From: Promethearchaeota archaeon
Lineage (GTDB): Archaea > Asgardarchaeota > Lokiarchaeia > Sigyniarchaeales > SOKP01
Length of the DNA: 23,087 nucleotides
Direction: 5' to 3'
Assembly (NCBI GenBank): GCA_048938005.1
Contig: JBHLMQ010000050.1
Coordinates: forward strand, 1-23,087
A program made the translations under genes and the position numbers. Of the stretch, positions 1,618-7,218 are shown piece after piece; position 1 is the stretch's first letter, and the number at the start of each line of letters is the position of its first letter. Below the pieces are notes generated by a model. It did no database searches and had not been told where the DNA came from. It worked only from the letters and a program-made list of their open reading frames with translations.

Positions 1618-1670
1618 ATTTTATACTCAGTTAAAATAAAATGAGAAAAACTAATATTTGGTAACAAATT

Positions 1671-1740
1671 GATGCCGTTGTGCAACGGTATTCTCAATAA
1701 GCATTCACGAGAATGTGTTTTAGCTTATCTCATAGACATC
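1671..1740 (-). promoter_or_regulatory. SECIS element (eukaryote-like AUGA/GA kink-turn type) in the 3'UTR of selD copy 1
   Basis: Minus-strand RNA: GAUGUCU-AUGAG-AUAAGC-UAAAA-CAC-AUUCUC-GUG-AAU-GCUUAU-UGAG-AAUA-CCGUU-GCAC-AACGG-CAUC. AUGA at 1733-1730, UGAG at 1696-1693. 57/70 nt identical to the element behind selD copy 2. Confidence 0.88.
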
Positions 1741-1741
1741 T

Positions 1742-2770
1742 TTAAAGTTTTGTAATTTCAATATTTTGAACATTTTCTGAAATTCTAACGAGCCCTGGTT
1801 GGATATTATCTATTTTTCCGACAATCCAATTAGAAATTTTATAGCTTGATAGCGCAGACGTAAAATCTTCTACTTTAATAGGATCAACAGCAATTAGCAT
1901 ACCTCCCGCAGTTTCGTGGCATTTACAATTATCAAAAGCATATCCTAACTCATGAGATAATTCTTCAGAAAATTTGATTGATGGAACAGTATCAATTGTC
2001 GCAGATAAATCAGAATTCTGAAGCATTTCTGCAGTATGACCCGCCAATCCAAATCCAGTAATATCTGTTAATGCATGAACAAATGAAAAATCAGTGTAAG
2101 AATGTATAGTTTTTACAACATTTTGATTTGAAGTAGTCATTATTTTTATAGCAAGATCAATAGATTTTTGGAGTTCATTCTTAGAATAATTCTCTAGCAT
2201 TTCAGGAAAATCCTTAAGAATCCGATATGATGCCATAATTGCTTGGAGGCCTATTGGTTTGGTTAACACTAGTTTATCTCCTTCCTTTACTCCTTGTTTT
2301 AGAATTAAAGCACCTTTGTTAACATATCCAGACGCTTCTCCGCCTATCAATGGCCATTCGCTATAAATAGTGTGCCCACCGACCACTTTAGAATTTATTT
2401 TTTTTTCCATAAAATATTTTATACCCTTTAGAATCCCTTCAGCAACTTCCATTGGAGTTCTTGTACTAATCGCTAAGAAGACAAGCATCCCTGATATCTC
2501 AGGTACATTCATTGCAAAAATATCATTTGTTACATTACACGCAGCGATTTCACCTGCTATTTCAGGTTCATCTATAATTGGAGTGAAAACGTCAATACTT
2601 TTAACAAGAACCAAATCACTTTTGGGTATAGGTATAATAGCAGCATCTTCAATATCTCCCGCTAAACCTACCTTAATTAATAAATCATTTAGGTCGTTTT
2701 GTCCAAGTTTACAGCTTCATCCATGTATCTTTACATCTGTAGTCAATCGATAATTTAATTCTTTGCTCAT
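1742..2770 (-). CDS. selD: Selenophosphate synthetase (selenide,water dikinase), selenoprotein, Sec at codon 18 (TGA at 2719-2717), 342 aa
   Basis: Extending the 290-aa ORF upstream gives MSKELNYRLTTDVKIHG-U-SCKLGQNDL...EDAAII...IDVFTP. Core motifs NDIFAM, GGHT, GDKLVLTKPIG, TDITGFGLAGH and ETAGGML. GAGGTG SD just upstream of ATG 2770. Confidence 0.95.
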
Positions 2771-2840
2771 ACACCTCAACTTTTTATGATATTTATTTAA
2801 TTTTAAATTAAAGTTAGTTAATAATTCAAGTTCTAACTAT

Positions 2841-2855
2841 CTATAAAAATTTTCG
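2841..2855 (-). promoter_or_regulatory. Putative archaeal BRE-TATA promoter of selD copy 1
   Basis: Minus strand reads CGAAAA-TTTTTATAG about 70 nt upstream of ATG 2770. The AT-rich background limits certainty. Confidence 0.55.
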
Positions 2856-2934
2856 ATATTATTTATCAATTTTATCGATAAATAACAATTATGTTGTAAT
2901 TAAAAATAAGATCTAAAAACACCCAATTATTTAC

Positions 2935-3004
2935 GATGCTGTTTTGCAACAGTATACTCAATAAGCGCCCACAATGATGTGTTTTTACTTATTTCATAGA
3001 CATC
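2935..3004 (-). promoter_or_regulatory. SECIS element (eukaryote-like AUGA/GA kink-turn type) in the 3'UTR of selD copy 2
   Basis: Minus-strand RNA: GAUGUCU-AUGAA-AUAAGU-AAAAA-CACA-UCAU-UGUG-GGC-GCUUAU-UGAG-UAUA-CUGUU-GCAA-AACAG-CAUC. AUGA at 2997-2994, UGAG at 2960-2957. Stem substitutions relative to copy 1 preserve pairing. Confidence 0.88.
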
Positions 3005-3005
3005 G

Positions 3006-4040
3006 CTAGATTTTTGTTATTTCAATATGTTCAGCATTTTTGGATACCCGAACATATTTAGGTTTGCTTGTATTATCGATTGTGCCTATAATCCAGTTTT
3101 TCACGCCAAATTTATTATTTAATCTTTGTGAAAATTCTTCAGCAAATTCATGATCCACAGAGAGAAGCATCCCCCCCGCAGTCTCAGGCATTTCACATTC
3201 ATCATATTTGTACCCAAATTCGTAAGCTAAATCGCTTGTTAGTTTAATACTAGGGATCTTTTCGATTATAGCTGAGAGACGCGAATTTTGAAGTATTTCT
3301 CTCAGATGCCCAGCAAGACCAAAACCACTGACATCTGTCATCGAATGAATGAATGATATATCTCTATATGTATGAATAGTCTTTACAACGTCTTGAAGGG
3401 GTGTTATCATTAATTTCACGGCTATATCAATAGATCTGTCAATTTCAGTTGTAGAATAAGATTCCAAAAGTTCAGGATTATTTTTTTGAAGTCGGTATGC
3501 TGCCATTATTGCTTGATTGCCAATTGGTTTTGTTAGAATTATTTTATCTCCCTCTTCTAAATAGGTTTTTTTGATAATTTTATCTTTTTCAGCAAAACCA
3601 CTTGCCTCACCACCAATAAGAGGCCATTCTGAATATATTGTATGACCCCCAAGAACTTTAGAATTTAATTTTTTCTCCATAAAGTTTTTGATTCCCTTTA
3701 ATATTCCTTCTGCTATGTACATAGGCATGTTTTTCTTTAATCCTAAGAACACAAGCATACCAGATATTTCTGAAACATTTAGAGCAAATATATCGTTGGT
3801 AACATTAGCAGCGGCAATTTCTCCCATGATATCTGGTTCATCTATAATAGGAGTAAATATGTCTATATTTTTAACCATAACTAGGTTAGTATTTGGTACA
3901 GGAATAATTGCGGAATCTTCAAAATCACCTTTTAATCCAGCATTTTCCAGTAGGTTCTCTAATTTCTCACTAGAAAGCTTACAGTCTCATCCAAAAAGTT
4001 TTGTTTGCAATGTCAATCGATAACTCTCTAATTCTTGCAT
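3006..4040 (-). CDS. selD: Selenophosphate synthetase paralog, selenoprotein, Sec at codon 18 (TGA at 3989-3987), 344 aa
   Basis: Extending the ORF upstream gives MQELESYRLTLQTKLFG-U-DCKLSSEKL...EDSAII...IDIFTP. Motifs NDIFAL, GGHT, GDKIILTKPIG, TDVSGFGLAGH and ETAGGML. GAGGTGA SD at 4050-4044. Confidence 0.95.
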
Positions 4041-4102
4041 CCTTCACCTCAGTTTATAATTTTTAATAATAAATACTAATAGAATTAAATAGAATAGATG
4101 AA

Positions 4103-4118
4103 TATATTAATCTTTTCC
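4103..4118 (-). promoter_or_regulatory. Putative BRE-TATA promoter of selD copy 2
   Basis: Minus strand GGAAAAGA-TTAATATA about 65 nt upstream of ATG 4040, a spacing similar to copy 1. Confidence 0.4.
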
Positions 4119-4227: not shown

Positions 4228-7218
4228 TTATGGAAAGTATAGATCTATATGTTTAGTCATTTTTCTTGCTATCTCGAATTGATCCCGATAGTATAGCTCG
4301 AGTTTGATCTCATCTGCTGTGGGGTCAAATAAATTCTTTTTAAGCTCTTTTTGTTTGTCTACTTTGAGCACATAATTAAATTTGAAAATTTTTCCAGGTT
4401 TAAGTTCATTTATTTGGAGAAATTTTGGAAAACTTTCCTTTCTCTGGAAAATAAGATAAGATGGTACTTTTAAAGATATTTGTAAATCTTTAAAATCAAA
4501 ATTTGAGGGATTAGTTAATTTGAAATTTAAATATATTTCGTTTCCGATAGTTTTGATGTTCTTAAAGAAGAGAATTTCTTTAGAATCTGGTATTTCAGAG
4601 TCAATTTGTTGGAAATAAAGTTTATCATTAATAATTTTTGCATTTAACTTGTTCTTGTTTATAAATTTAAGAACTAATTCTTTTACTCGTTCGATATCTA
4701 ATTTAATATAATTAGCGAGTAAATCTAACTTAATGGGATTAATAATTTTAAGATAATATTTAATTTGATTTAGATATAACTTATTATTAGATTTTCTGAC
4801 AAATGTTTTTGATTTATTTATTATTAACTCTTTTGAGGCATTAAATTTATTAAGATATGGCCTAATATATAAGTTAAATATATTATTATCTTCGAAAATC
4901 TTTTCTTTTCCAAGAATGATATCAATTTTTTTTTCTGCATCTTCAATATAGTTTTGGATTTGCATGGTATTTATTTCTATTAATCTCTTTGCGTCCGAAA
5001 ATTCATTCTTTTTTATTAAGAAATCAAATTTATTAATTAGTTTATGAAAATCCTCATTAAAATTTTTCATACCTTCAATTTTCTCTGTAATAATAGATTG
5101 GATATGTCCTTGAAGTAGTTGAAAACTTAATTCAGTACTAATCCCGTCGATCAGTTTAGATTCAGAACCTATAGTCATTGGTTCAGCTTGCAAAATATAG
5201 TTAAATAGTTTATCTTTCATTAATTTAATTTGGCGATCCAGATCATTCAAATATTCTTGAATTTCTATTTTTGTTGCAACCCATTTCTGTAATAGATCCT
5301 TAAAAATTTCGTTAAATTCTACGTTATTTATTAATAATTCTCTGATATCACCATCCAATTTAAATAACTTTTTCCTTATTTGGGTTATATAACCAAGTGT
5401 ATCATCTTTAATATCTTTTAATTCAATACTAGTTATTTGAGTATCTAAATCTACTTCAAACTTATTTTCTTTCATATATTCAAACTCTGTTTTTAAGATA
5501 TTAATACGATCAATAATTATATTGATCTTTTTTTTCAAATCTAAAGTAAACTCAGCTTTCTTTTCTTCACAGATTTCGGAGATAAACCCTTTAATAATAC
5601 TTAATTCTTCAATAATTTGTACTCTAGTTTCTTCCCAATCTTCGATTAAATCAAATGCCAACCTCTTGTACTCAAATCTATTAATTATTTGGTGAAACTT
5701 TTTAACTTTCTTTAAGATTTTATTATATTTTTCATTTAACTGAATTTCGGTGGTATTAAATTTGAAATTTTGAATGTATGAATTCAATTTTTCTCTAAAT
5801 TGAGCAGGAATTTTCTGAAATTCGATAATTCTCTTCCGAAATATTGTTAATTCATTATTGATTCTTTCAATTGTATTATCGATATCTGGAAAGTTTGCTT
5901 TAATATTTTTTAGTGTATAAATGATTTCTTTCTTGACTTCTGGATCTTTTTCAATTTTTAGAGCATTATTTAACTCAATCGTAATCCAAACAGCAAGCTT
6001 CTTACTTTCTAAAATGAAACATATATTTTGTAACAAAACAATAGTTTTCTTTCTTTCTCGCCAGAATCGGGATTCTAATTGATATAAAATTTTTGTGATT
6101 TCATTTTCAATTTCAATCTGATATTCTTCAAATAATCGCTTAAATACTAATACAATGCCTTCCCTAATATTTTCAGATGGATTTTCTAATTCTTCAAATA
6201 AATAAGGAAATATTTCGGGGATATTCTTGCTGCTTAGATGAAAGATTGCATTTATTAATGAATTTCTATAATCAGAATCACTTGCTTCCAATATTGAATG
6301 CAATAAATTTGCCCAAATTTGATCAAAATTATTTTCAGCGATATTAACAAGAGCTTCAATAACTTTTAATTGAATACGATAATCTTTTTCCTTTAATAGA
6401 TTAATCAACTTTGGTATTATTGAAATTATTTCTGATGATTTTTCTTTGCCAATTTCTCCAAATAACCAAATAATAAGTTCTTTTACTCTATTTTCTTCAT
6501 TATAAAGAAGATTTAATAAAATATAAAATATCTTTTCTTTCGATAGAAAATATGTCCCATGAATCTTTAAAAGTTCTGCTGCTGCCCTCGCAACATCATC
6601 ATCCTCATCCCTTAGATTAATAATTACCATCGATAATAAGGGTTCTAAATCTGGAATTTTAGTATAATCTTGATTTAATATCTTCTGGATTGTCTTTATC
6701 ACATTCAATTTTACCTTCCAGTCATTGTCCATTAATTTTTCGGTATATTCTTCAATTATTTCCTGTAATTCGCTTAAATCTATATGTAAAGATAATATCA
6801 AATTACCTATGATTTTAACCGTTAATCTCCTTACAGAAGAATCTTGGTCATATAAACGGCCTCTAATTTTATTTATTAATTCAATTAAAAGATTTGGCCT
6901 AAACAAACTTATTTGATATGAAATTTCTAATGATACTAATCTAATCCAAGAATCTGAATCATTTATAAAATGATTAATATTGTTTATTGCCCTCAATGAG
7001 ATTGAGGGTGCCTTATCACAAATTAGGTTTAATAAGCTTAAACTTCGATAAATAAGCTCCTTATCAGAATGATTTTCGTAATTTTCTATGATTTCAAATA
7101 TGCTTTCAGCAGCTTTTTCATTATACCCGTTTAAAATTAAACTTTCAATTTTTTCAGTATCTAAAGTCAGAGTTGTCAATGCGGTAGGGAAGATATTTTT
7201 TTTTAAATTATAGTTCAA
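4228..7218 (-). CDS. Large HEAT/ARM-repeat protein with central coiled coil, PCI-like winged helix and C-terminal Ig-like beta-sandwich
   Basis: Repeated HEAT turns (INDSDSWIR, LYDQDSSVR, LMDNDWKVK, LRDEDDDVA, LKEKDYRIQ, LENPSENIR). Long K/E/I/L helical middle region. IKLDLLANYIKLDIERVKELVLKFINKNKLNAKI resembles a PCI winged helix. Tail is beta-rich. TTG start. Confidence 0.8.
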   Translation of the reverse strand: MNYNLKKNIFPTALTTLTLDTEKIESLILNGYNEKAAESIFEIIENYENHSDKELIYRSLSLLNLICDKAPSISLRAINNINHFINDSDSWIRLVSLEISYQISLFRPNLLIELINKIRGRLYDQDSSVRRLTVKIIGNLILSLHIDLSELQEIIEEYTEKLMDNDWKVKLNVIKTIQKILNQDYTKIPDLEPLLSMVIINLRDEDDDVARAAAELLKIHGTYFLSKEKIFYILLNLLYNEENRVKELIIWLFGEIGKEKSSEIISIIPKLINLLKEKDYRIQLKVIEALVNIAENNFDQIWANLLHSILEASDSDYRNSLINAIFHLSSKNIPEIFPYLFEELENPSENIREGIVLVFKRLFEEYQIEIENEITKILYQLESRFWRERKKTIVLLQNICFILESKKLAVWITIELNNALKIEKDPEVKKEIIYTLKNIKANFPDIDNTIERINNELTIFRKRIIEFQKIPAQFREKLNSYIQNFKFNTTEIQLNEKYNKILKKVKKFHQIINRFEYKRLAFDLIEDWEETRVQIIEELSIIKGFISEICEEKKAEFTLDLKKKINIIIDRINILKTEFEYMKENKFEVDLDTQITSIELKDIKDDTLGYITQIRKKLFKLDGDIRELLINNVEFNEIFKDLLQKWVATKIEIQEYLNDLDRQIKLMKDKLFNYILQAEPMTIGSESKLIDGISTELSFQLLQGHIQSIITEKIEGMKNFNEDFHKLINKFDFLIKKNEFSDAKRLIEINTMQIQNYIEDAEKKIDIILGKEKIFEDNNIFNLYIRPYLNKFNASKELIINKSKTFVRKSNNKLYLNQIKYYLKIINPIKLDLLANYIKLDIERVKELVLKFINKNKLNAKIINDKLYFQQIDSEIPDSKEILFFKNIKTIGNEIYLNFKLTNPSNFDFKDLQISLKVPSYLIFQRKESFPKFLQINELKPGKIFKFNYVLKVDKQKELKKNLFDPTADEIKLELYYRDQFEIARKMTKHIDLYFP

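What the first reader, a model, noticed from the sequence alone, without database searches (positions are those of the whole stretch)
1742..4040. Two tandem selD paralogs, both hidden selenoproteins with UGA recoded at codon 18
Seen: both ORF-track calls are truncated. Upstream of each, the frame continues through one TGA (2719-2717 and 3989-3987) to an ATG with a GAGGTG SD. The N-termini align without gaps (YRLT...G-U-S-C-K and YRLT...G-U-D-C-K). Known: this is the catalytic Cys/Sec...Lys site of SelD/SPS2, and Sec use in Lokiarchaeota has been described. Inference: two adjacent Sec-containing SPS paralogs that have diverged substantially (roughly 55-60% aa identity by eye), each keeping its own SECIS and apparent promoter, is unusual because prokaryotes typically have one selD. 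It points to an old, maintained duplication. Automated pipelines would call these truncated or pseudogenes.
Basis: partly seen in the sequence, partly recalled or inferred. Interest (0 to 1): 0.88.

Follow-up and report, generated by a model that had tools for sequence, protein, structure and literature searches.

The report
Two tandem selenoprotein selD genes
Two neighbouring genes for the selenium-activating enzyme SelD, each needing selenocysteine itself, are real and come from an old duplication in one group of Loki-type Asgard archaea, but extra selD copies in these archaea have already been published.

Summary
Window 3006-4040(-) (copy A, 344 aa) and 1742-2770(-) (copy B, 342 aa) are complete selD genes. 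Each has one in-frame TGA at codon 18, inside G-U-x-C-K. They are 60% identical. Both score above the TIGR00476 selD cut-off. Each is followed at once by its own 72-nt eukaryote-like type II SECIS, supported by covariation, then by T-runs.

The genome holds tRNA-Sec and SepSecS, plus EFSec-like and PSTK-like genes that score below their models' cut-offs.

The pair is not peculiar to this genome. A lies upstream of B in 30 of 30 sequenced pairs. Two-copy genomes number 57 of 96 in two genera of one family, 0 of 39 in its other 11 genera, and no such pair occurs in 196 other Asgard genomes sampled.

B is the counterpart of the ordinary single-copy gene. A is a monophyletic, long-stemmed extra clade with U-N-C-K (U-D-C-K here). 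Both are under purifying selection (median dN/dS 0.09 and 0.11).

Sec-SelD with a type II SECIS (Mariotti 2016) and "two or more selD genes" in 51 Loki-/Thorarchaeia (Huang 2024) are in print. The role of copy A stays unknown.

By-product: selD of two other Asgard families carries a 30-34-nt bulge-helix-bulge-like intervening sequence.

The parts
3006..4040 (-). selD copy A (extra paralog), 344 aa, Sec at codon 18 (TGA 3987-3989), motif G-U-D-C-K
   Evidence: TIGR00476 172.9 bits against a cut-off of 125; member of the monophyletic A clade
1742..2770 (-). selD copy B (counterpart of the single-copy selD of related genera), 342 aa, Sec at codon 18 (TGA 2717-2719), motif G-U-S-C-K
   Evidence: TIGR00476 190.2 bits; it shares the KI[HFY]GUSCKLG motif with single-copy genera and groups with them in both trees
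2934..3005 (-). SECIS of copy A. It starts 1 nt after the stop. It has a basal helix, an AUGA...GA core, a 7-bp upper stem, an A-rich bulge, a ministem, and a second 3' hairpin enclosed by the basal helix.
   Evidence: covariance model R1 scores 85.1 bits at C86:2911-3008
1670..1741 (-). SECIS of copy B, same architecture
   Evidence: R1 scores 87.4 bits at C86:1647-1744
2901..2920 (-). T-runs after SECIS A; putative archaeal terminator between A and B (inferred)
   Evidence: the columns after the SECIS are T-rich in most of the 80 aligned 3'UTRs
1631..1650 (-). T-runs after SECIS B; putative terminator (inferred)
4103..4117 (-). BRE/TATA-like block (GAAA..TTAATA) upstream of copy A; putative promoter (inferred)
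   Evidence: the pattern occurs in 28 of 32 A upstream regions against 105 of 5000 random genome windows
2842..2854 (-). BRE/TATA-like block (GAAA..TTTTTATA) in the A-B spacer, upstream of copy B; putative promoter (inferred, weaker)
   Evidence: the strict pattern occurs in 11 of 37 B upstream regions
4045..4050 (-). GAGGTG Shine-Dalgarno-like motif of copy A
   Evidence: GAGGTG lies within 20 nt of the ATG in 31 of 32 A genes against 5 of 5000 random windows
2772..2777 (-). GAGGTG Shine-Dalgarno-like motif of copy B (only 1 nt from the ATG here)
   Evidence: 36 of 37 B genes have it

Best explanation
The locus holds two independently transcribed genes for selenide, water dikinase (SelD, selenophosphate synthetase). 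Both are selenoproteins. At codon 18 a UGA is read as selenocysteine, directed by a eukaryote-like type II SECIS that begins 1 nt after each gene's stop codon. Recoding needs tRNA-Sec and an EFSec-like factor, both encoded elsewhere in the genome. Copy B is the ordinary Asgard selD. Copy A arose by a tandem duplication inside this Lokiarchaeia (Promethearchaeia) family, before the two genera that carry it separated. It diverged quickly at first and has been conserved since. It was lost again in many lineages, so it is an accessory copy. Both keep the catalytic Sec...Lys loop and the conserved Asp residues, so both most likely make selenophosphate for Sec-tRNA synthesis. Shown here: gene structure, family membership, SECIS covariation, distribution, selection, and presence of tRNA-Sec and SepSecS with EFSec-like and PSTK-like genes below cut-off. 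Inferred: actual Sec insertion, enzymatic activity of both copies, separate transcription, and the advantage of a second copy (dosage, or a split of regulation or selenium-donor use).
For: Both genes have the AIRS + AIRS_C architecture. Both exceed the TIGR00476 cut-off, with 172.9 and 190.2 bits against 125. The closest solved structures are SEPHS1, a Leishmania putative selenophosphate synthetase, and the Aquifex and E. coli SelD. Sec machinery in the genome: tRNA-Sec at C97:101872-101964; SepSecS next to it at 485 bits, over cut-off; an EFSec-like gene about 4 kb away at 231.9 bits; a PSTK-like gene on C24 at 146 bits, aligned over its full length. SECIS: over 80 3'UTRs, 91.6% of cells are paired and 19 of 21 pairs have double changes. 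None of 500 shuffles reached this, and slid controls gave 27-45%. RNAalifold independently finds three of the four helices. Model R1 hits only these two places in the 3.72-Mb genome (87.4 and 85.1 bits; the next best is 22 bits, E about 0.5). Distribution: two matches in 37 of 54 genomes of genus g1 and 20 of 42 of g22, and in 0 of 39 genomes of the family's other 11 genera. A lies upstream of B on the same strand in 30 of 30 pairs, with spacers of 213-2229 nt. The A clade is monophyletic (99 SH-aLRT; 100/100). Median dN/dS over 42 unsaturated species pairs is 0.088 for A and 0.111 for B.
Against: There is no RNA or protein evidence. No RNA run was listed as holding the stretch. The EFSec-like and PSTK-like genes score below their models' cut-offs (242 and 290 bits). 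Copy A has derived changes beside catalytic elements: S to N (D in this window) right after Sec, and A to S and T to S flanking the Asp of the TDxxGFG motif. Identical chemistry is therefore not assured. Two A copies in relatives (G020, G086) are frameshifted near the Sec codon. By score, about 30 genomes of the two genera have only B, so A is dispensable. The branching point of A within the family differs between the two trees.
Confidence: 0.85

Rival explanations
1. Copy A has taken on a new role. It would be a Sec-dependent SelD-like enzyme with an altered active site that serves something other than Sec-tRNA synthesis, such as another selenium or sulfur acceptor or a regulatory or redox role. 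This would parallel the eukaryotic SPS1/SPS2 split, except that Sec is kept.
For: The A clade has a long stem (0.24 and 0.37 substitutions per site) followed by strong conservation. Four A-specific derived, fixed substitutions were found. Three lie beside catalytic elements: U+1, and the -3 and +2 positions around the Asp of TDxxGFG. Huang 2024 raises 'new function' as a possibility.
Against: Sec, Lys and the conserved Asp positions are all kept. No other known selenium-use marker was found in the genome: SelU/TIGR03167 none, YqeC/TIGR03172 none, TIGR04348 only 22 bits. The neighbouring genes are unrelated to selenium.
Confidence: 0.2
2. A and B work as a heterodimer, since SelD enzymes are dimers. 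A would be a specialised partner subunit of B rather than an independent enzyme.
For: The A-then-B order is strictly conserved (30 of 30). No clear case of A without B was seen. The two A-only genomes sequenced (G126, G130) end at contig edges.
Against: B works alone in all single-copy genera and in about 30 B-only genomes of the two genera, including several with 100% completeness. The genes have separate promoter-like motifs and T-runs. Binding was not tested.
Confidence: 0.12
3. The TGAs are sequencing errors, the genes are pseudogenes, or the two copies are an assembly artefact (strain mixture) of one gene.
For: Standard ORF calling gives truncated genes. The genome is a 101-contig assembly with 7% contamination.
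Against: TGA sits at the same codon in all 150 listed family matches. Independent contigs from 3 studies cover both sites with no listed difference there. dN/dS is about 0.1 for both copies. Each has a SECIS with covariation. The two copies lie on one contig, are only 60% identical, and are syntenic in 30 of 30 pairs.
Confidence: 0.02

Closest known systems
Sec-containing SPS/SelD of Lokiarchaeota with its distinct, type-II-like SECIS (Mariotti et al. 2016, PMC4989117; passages read)
   Same: One in-frame UGA sits at the catalytic position. The SECIS lies in the 3'UTR close to the stop codon. It has an AUGA...GA core, a short main stem and an extra apical stem (searches compared).
   Different: That study found SPS in single copy in its Loki bin. 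Here there are two tandem copies. The basal helix and the second 3' hairpin found here gave no hit in its main text ('junction', 'basal', 'lower stem': 0 hits). Its figures and supplements were not seen.
Multi-copy selD in Loki-/Thorarchaeia (Huang, Xiao and Zhang 2024, PMC11227280; passages read)
   Same: It states that 51 organisms have two or more selD genes, that this is rare in other prokaryotes, and that selD mostly has type II eSECIS-like elements. The elements here fit its published model: core GA_[G/A]A, upper stem of 7-15 bp, bulge of 4-12 nt, ministem of 2-8 bp.
   Different: Its main text does not mention tandem arrangement ('tandem' and 'adjacent': 0 hits), a separate paralog clade, its U-N-C-K motif, or selection. 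Its supplementary tables could not be opened and may hold some of this. In the Thor-like family sampled here, the second copy is a different thing: a fused protein of about 750 aa with Cys.
Eukaryotic SEPHS1/SEPHS2 (SPS1/SPS2) paralog pair
   Same: Both are duplications of the selenophosphate synthetase gene with divergence of one copy. Human SEPHS1 is the best solved-structure match (E 1.6e-35).
   Different: By recall, SPS1-type copies have lost Sec/Cys and selenophosphate synthesis. Here both copies keep Sec, Lys and the Asp residues. The duplications are independent, because clade A lies inside one archaeal family.
Sec-containing SelD of Methanococcales (NCBIfam NF010705 / PRK14105 type)
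   Same: This is the best-scoring specific model for both copies (254.5 and 287.2 bits). By recall, the Methanococcales enzyme is likewise archaeal with Sec at the catalytic position.
   Different: Both copies score below that model's cut-off of 291. By recall and from the abstracts, methanogens use the canonical archaeal SECIS, not the kink-turn type seen here.

Membership tests
SelD / selenophosphate synthetase (TIGR00476) | PurM-superfamily two-domain architecture (AIRS N-terminal plus AIRS_C) | tested here: met
   PF00586 and PF02769 are both over their cut-offs in A and in B
SelD / selenophosphate synthetase (TIGR00476) | Score above the curated equivalog cut-off | tested here: met
   172.9 bits (A) and 190.2 bits (B) against a cut-off of 125. 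The third weak hit in the genome (C17, 86 bits) is HypE/ThiL-like and is not SelD.
SelD / selenophosphate synthetase (TIGR00476) | N-terminal glycine-rich loop with catalytic Sec/Cys and Lys (G-[U/C]-x-C-K) | tested here: met
   G-U-D-C-K in A and G-U-S-C-K in B at residues 17-21. The same position is U in 109 of 109 extracted relatives. The fused Thor-type copies have C there.
SelD / selenophosphate synthetase (TIGR00476) | Conserved Asp residues of the ATP/metal site (their roles are recalled from the SelD/SEPHS1 structure papers, not from a call) | tested here: met
   In B, the Asp residues in the motifs E-D-A-A, S-I-D-V-F, T-N-D-I-F and L-T-D-I-T align with Asp in human SEPHS1. All four are identical in A.
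SelD / selenophosphate synthetase (TIGR00476) | ATP-dependent synthesis of selenophosphate from selenide | not testable with these tools
   Needs an enzyme assay
Asgard type II eSECIS-like element (model of Huang et al. 2024) | Kink-turn core GA_[G/A]A (usually AUGA_GA), upper stem of 7-15 bp, bulge of 4-12 nt with leading adenines, ministem of 2-8 bp, located in the 3'UTR | tested here: met
   AUGA...UGAG core, 7-bp stem (columns 21-27/52-58), A-rich bulge, 4-bp ministem (34-37/44-47), starting 1 nt after the stop. The model definition was read.
Asgard type II eSECIS-like element (model of Huang et al. 2024) | Structure conserved through compensatory changes | tested here: met
   19 of 21 pairs have double changes, 0 of 500 shuffles reach this, and slid controls give 27-45% paired against 91.6%. 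Caveat: five f1 3'UTRs that lacked the block were left out of the alignment, and R1 does not hit them.
Asgard type II eSECIS-like element (model of Huang et al. 2024) | Directs Sec insertion at an upstream UGA | not testable with these tools
   Needs a reporter assay or proteomics. Rfam has no matching family (0 hits at gathering threshold; only 2 chance-level hits at E up to 10).
Selenoprotein gene in a Sec-decoding organism | tRNA-Sec, PSTK, SepSecS and EFSec present in the same genome | tested here: met
   tRNA-Sec and SepSecS at 485 bits are clear. The EFSec-like gene (231.9 bits) and the PSTK-like gene (146 bits, full length) are below the cut-offs of models built on other lineages.

The most novel reading that the evidence does not exclude
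Copy A is not a spare. It would be a Sec-dependent selenophosphate-synthetase paralog with a retuned active site (U-N-C-K, and Ser/Ser around the motif Asp), kept under strong constraint for a distinct job. That job could be a second selenium-delivery route, or a specialised partner subunit of B. This would be an archaeal, Sec-retaining counterpart of the SPS1/SPS2 split, in the lineage closest to eukaryotes.
Probability: 0.2. Interest if true: 0.6.

Novelty: already known. Interest (0 to 1): 0.3.

Why it matters
SelD makes the selenium donor for selenocysteine and is itself a selenoprotein here, so the pathway depends on its own product. A second Sec-dependent copy doubles that dependence. 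Asgard selD and its type II SECIS have been proposed as the stepping stone to the eukaryotic Sec system (Huang 2024).

This work adds detail to a published statement. The extra copies in the Loki-type lineage form one old tandem paralog clade with its own active-site signature. Both copies are under purifying selection. The selD SECIS is a branched element with a conserved second hairpin, and it is recognisable in several Asgard families.

These points give concrete material for enzyme and reporter assays. They do not change the current picture.

Tried and rejected
Rfam: nothing at gathering threshold, and only two chance-level hits at E up to 10.

Expression: no RNA holder was listed for the stretch. 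Contigs cannot show transcripts.

Other selenium traits that might explain a second SelD: SelU/TIGR03167 none, YqeC/TIGR03172 none, TIGR04348 (recalled as the SenB selenosugar synthase model; the output gave no name) only 22 bits elsewhere.

Neighbouring genes were considered as partners and dropped. The GT4 glycosyltransferase (3-896) matched no selenium-related NCBIfam model. The SAM methyltransferase (985-1617) gave only weak TehB-like hits among many generic ones.

The 'third selD' on contig C17 is HypE/ThiL-like.

An HGD-D gene lies between A and B, or just upstream of B, in some relatives. It has no ortholog in this genome (best about 30% identity) and is an occasional insert.

The exact age of the duplication was not settled. 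The large quick tree puts clade A at the base of the family's selD. The smaller careful tree nests it among B sequences. No AU test was run.

Supplementary tables of Huang 2024 and Mariotti 2016 were closed. They may already list these gene pairs.
Full report
**The observation**

Under table 11 the region shows two truncated 290-aa ORFs on the minus strand. Reading TGA as Sec gives two complete genes. Copy A spans 3006-4040 (344 aa) and copy B spans 1742-2770 (342 aa). Each has exactly one TGA, at codon 18, within G-U-D-C-K (A) and G-U-S-C-K (B). The two proteins are 60% identical over 339 residues. GAGGTG precedes both start codons, 4 nt away for A and 1 nt away for B.

**What the genes are**

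- Both proteins have the AIRS and AIRS_C domains.
- Both exceed the curated cut-off of the selD equivalog TIGR00476, with 172.9 and 190.2 bits against 125.
- Their best solved relatives are human SEPHS1, a Leishmania putative selenophosphate synthetase, and the Aquifex and E. coli SelD.
- The Asp residues that align with Asp in SEPHS1 are present in B and unchanged in A. That these are metal/ATP ligands is recalled from the structure papers.
- A third weak selD-like hit in the genome (contig C17) is HypE/ThiL-like, not SelD.

**Sec machinery**

The window is a whole 23-kb contig (C86) of a 3.72-Mb, 101-contig assembly. Completeness is 95% and contamination 7%.

- ARAGORN finds one tRNA-Sec (anticodon TCA) on C97.
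- SepSecS lies beside it at 485 bits, over its cut-off.
- An EFSec-like GTPase lies about 4 kb away at 231.9 bits, against a cut-off of 242 on a largely bacterial model.
- A PSTK-like gene, aligned over its full length, lies on C24 at 146 bits, below the cut-off of 290.

The tRNA-Sec/EFSec proximity matches what Mariotti et al. 2016 describe for their Loki bin.

**SECIS**

The two 3'UTRs share a block of about 76 nt that starts right after the stop codon. I extracted the 98 nt after the stop of 105 selD genes. I aligned 80 of them: 28 A, and 52 B or single-copy genes of the same family. Five family members were left out because they lacked the block by eye: the B gene of L024, plus L072, L076, L082 and L084. 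The 20 outgroup sequences were also left out.

The structure I proposed has four helices:

- a basal helix;
- a 7-bp upper stem directly above an AUGA...UGAG core;
- a 4-bp ministem after an A-rich bulge;
- a second hairpin with a UGCAA-like loop, lying between the core and the 3' strand of the basal helix.

On this structure 91.6% of 1630 cells are paired, and 19 of 21 pairs have changes on both sides. None of 500 shuffles reached the observed values. Sliding the partners dropped pairing to 27-45%. RNAalifold on its own predicts the basal helix, the upper stem and the second hairpin.

A covariance model of the alignment (R1) finds only the two selD 3'UTRs in the whole genome, at 87.4 and 85.1 bits. 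These two sequences were in the model. The next hit scores 22 bits, with E about 0.5.

R1 also gives full-length matches just downstream of selD in 10 of 30 loci from other Asgard families (f2, f10, f19, f22). It gives none at the five family 3'UTRs that were left out.

The element fits the published type II eSECIS-like model.

**Distribution**

With TIGR00476 at E up to 1e-30, the counts of genomes with two matches are as follows.

| Group searched | Genomes with two matches |
|---|---|
| Genus g1, window's genome included | 37 of 54 |
| Genus g22 | 20 of 42 |
| The family's other 11 genera | 0 of 39 (33 have one match) |
| Even draw of the phylum, outside this family | 2 of 196 (71 have any match) |

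The two exceptions in the phylum draw each combine one Sec-type gene with a fused protein of about 750 aa that has Cys and no stops.

In the pairs I extracted, A lies upstream of B on the same strand in 30 of 30. Spacers are 213-2229 nt.

By score, the 11 one-copy genomes of g1 are all B-type. Three of these were checked by sequence. Of the 21 one-copy genomes of g22, 19 look B-type. The two A-only cases end at contig edges.

Record titles of the closest public relatives read mostly 'Promethearchaeota' or 'Promethearchaeia archaeon'. That class holds Promethearchaeales and Helarchaeales. By recall this is the renamed Lokiarchaeia.

**Phylogeny**

In a 106-row quick tree, the family's selD sequences form one clade (99 SH-aLRT). 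Inside it the 28 A sequences form a clade (99, stem 0.24) that lies outside B plus all single-copy genes. That B-plus-singles group has weak support (81).

In a 46-row careful tree, A is again monophyletic (100/100, stem 0.37) but is nested among B sequences with moderate support. Rows without an upstream Met, including three f2 outgroups and the two g12 genes, were dropped by my extraction script before this tree.

So A arose inside this family, and it includes members of both genera. B carries the KI[HFY]GUSCKLG motif of the single-copy genera. The exact node of the duplication is unresolved.

**Selection and divergence**

For the 30 genomes with both genes I computed Nei-Gojobori dN/dS on all 435 species pairs. 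In 42 pairs dS lies between 0.05 and 1.2 for both genes. Their median dN/dS is 0.088 for A and 0.111 for B. dN of A exceeds dN of B in 24% of all pairs. Within a genome, A and B are 55-65% identical (median 62%).

Eight positions are at least 90% fixed to different residues in A (n=36) and in B plus singles (n=61). At four of them the 12 outgroup sequences agree with B:

- S19N, next to Sec;
- N215L;
- A233S, three residues before the Asp of TDxxGFG;
- T238S, two residues after that Asp.

A has U-N-C-K in 34 of 36 sequences and U-D-C-K in 2, this window among them. All 73 non-A sequences that passed my extraction filter have U-S-C-K.

Two A copies in relatives (G020, G086) are frameshifted near the Sec codon.

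**Expression signals (inferred)**

- T-runs follow both SECIS elements.
- A GAAA..TTAATA/TTTATA block ends about 52-95 nt before the ATG in 28 of 32 A genes and 11 of 37 B genes. It occurs in 105 of 5000 random genome windows.
- GAGGTG lies within 20 nt of the ATG in 31 of 32 A genes and 36 of 37 B genes, against 5 of 5000 random windows.

**Independent DNA**

Contigs of four runs from three studies cover both TGA positions. None of the 40 listed differences falls on them. A further 67 rows were not shown.

**Function**

The simplest reading is two active Sec-dependent selenophosphate synthetases, with B essential and A accessory. No other selenium-use marker was found in the genome, and the neighbouring genes are unrelated to selenium. 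Neofunctionalisation of A, or an A/B heterodimer, cannot be excluded.

**Novelty**

Mariotti et al. 2016 described the Sec-SPS of Lokiarchaeota and its distinct SECIS with an extra apical stem. Huang et al. 2024 report two or more selD genes in 51 Loki-/Thorarchaeia organisms, and type II elements for selD. A 2026 review adds nothing on copy number.

Tandem order, the A clade, its signature residues and the second hairpin gave no hits in the main texts I searched. Figures and supplements were not available. I therefore rate the finding as already known, with added detail.

**By-product**

selD of two other Asgard families carries a short insert at one fixed site inside the conserved N-D-x-[YF]-A-x-G motif. 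It is present in f22 (6 of 6 genomes) and in f11 (4 of 4 genomes that have selD).

- The insert is 30 nt long and ends in an in-frame TAA in eight genomes.
- It is 31 nt and 34 nt long in the other two, where the two halves of the gene lie in different frames.
- Boundaries set from protein homology fall 2 nt 3' of a 4-bp helix, inside two 3-nt bulges. This is bulge-helix-bulge geometry.
- An 8-bp inner helix shows compensatory changes at 7 of 8 pairs.
- All 120 cells are paired, against 14-62% in slid controls.

This looks like a splicing-endonuclease-type mini-intron in a protein-coding gene. Translational bypass is the rival explanation. I found no mention of it in the papers searched.

Noticed in passing
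Related loci, not the window: L102:2119-2181, L103:1741-1803, L104:2116-2178, L105:2119-2181, L107:1741-1803, L110:1741-1803 (family f22); L106:1735-1797, L111:1958-2020, L133:1452-1515, L134:2110-2176 (family f11): selD of two other Asgard families is interrupted at one fixed site by a 30-34-nt insert. In eight genomes the insert is 30 nt and ends in an in-frame TAA. In two genomes it is 31 or 34 nt, which puts the gene halves in different frames. Boundaries set from protein homology sit symmetrically in two 3-nt bulges around a 4-bp helix, and an inner 8-bp helix shows 7 of 8 compensatory pairs (120 of 120 cells paired). This is likely a bulge-helix-bulge mini-intron in a protein-coding mRNA. 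Translational bypass is the rival explanation.
   Followed up: partly
window 1670-1741 and 2934-3005; also L026, L027, L032, L098, L100, L103, L107, L110, L112, L115: The selD SECIS is a branched element. A basal helix that starts 1 nt after the stop encloses both the kink-turn hairpin and a second 5-bp hairpin with a UGCAA-like loop. Model R1, built on one family, matches full length downstream of selD in 10 of 30 loci of four other Asgard families. The main texts searched gave no hit for such a hairpin. Figures were not seen.
   Followed up: partly
window 1670-1741 compared with relatives in alignment A2: The second SECIS hairpin of this window's copy B (and of its nearest relative, L037) has the 4-nt-loop form typical of copy A. 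Most B genes of the genus have a 5-bp stem with a 5-nt loop. This may reflect gene conversion between the tandem 3'UTRs.
   Followed up: no
L047 (G020) and L118 (G086): In two relatives, copy A has its first 17-20 codons in a different frame from the rest. The break is a frameshift at or just after the Sec codon. It is either decay of the accessory copy or an assembly error.
   Followed up: partly
L052:2971-4263, L057:2744-4036, L119:2522-3811, also L038-L040, L058, L086, L120: In some genomes of both genera, a 430-aa HGD-D family gene (2-hydroxyacyl-CoA dehydratase D-component, PF06050, E 1e-114) sits between A and B, or just upstream of B. The window's genome has only 30%-identical paralogs elsewhere.
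   Followed up: partly
window 4228-7218 (-): Directly upstream of copy A lies a 996-aa protein with HEAT/Armadillo repeats, an Adaptin_N-like region and a weak PCI-domain hit. These are domains typical of eukaryotic proteins.
   Followed up: no
L088-L097 (family f10): Ten genomes of a Thor-like family carry a 509-772-aa fused SelD with Cys instead of Sec. It scores very high on TIGR00476 (391-405 bits). In eight of these genomes it is the only selD match at E up to 1e-30.
   Followed up: no
L127 (G014): The only selD match of this genome (at E up to 1e-30) is B-type and has a 10-residue insertion inside the conserved W-P-L-I-G-G-E motif.
   Followed up: no
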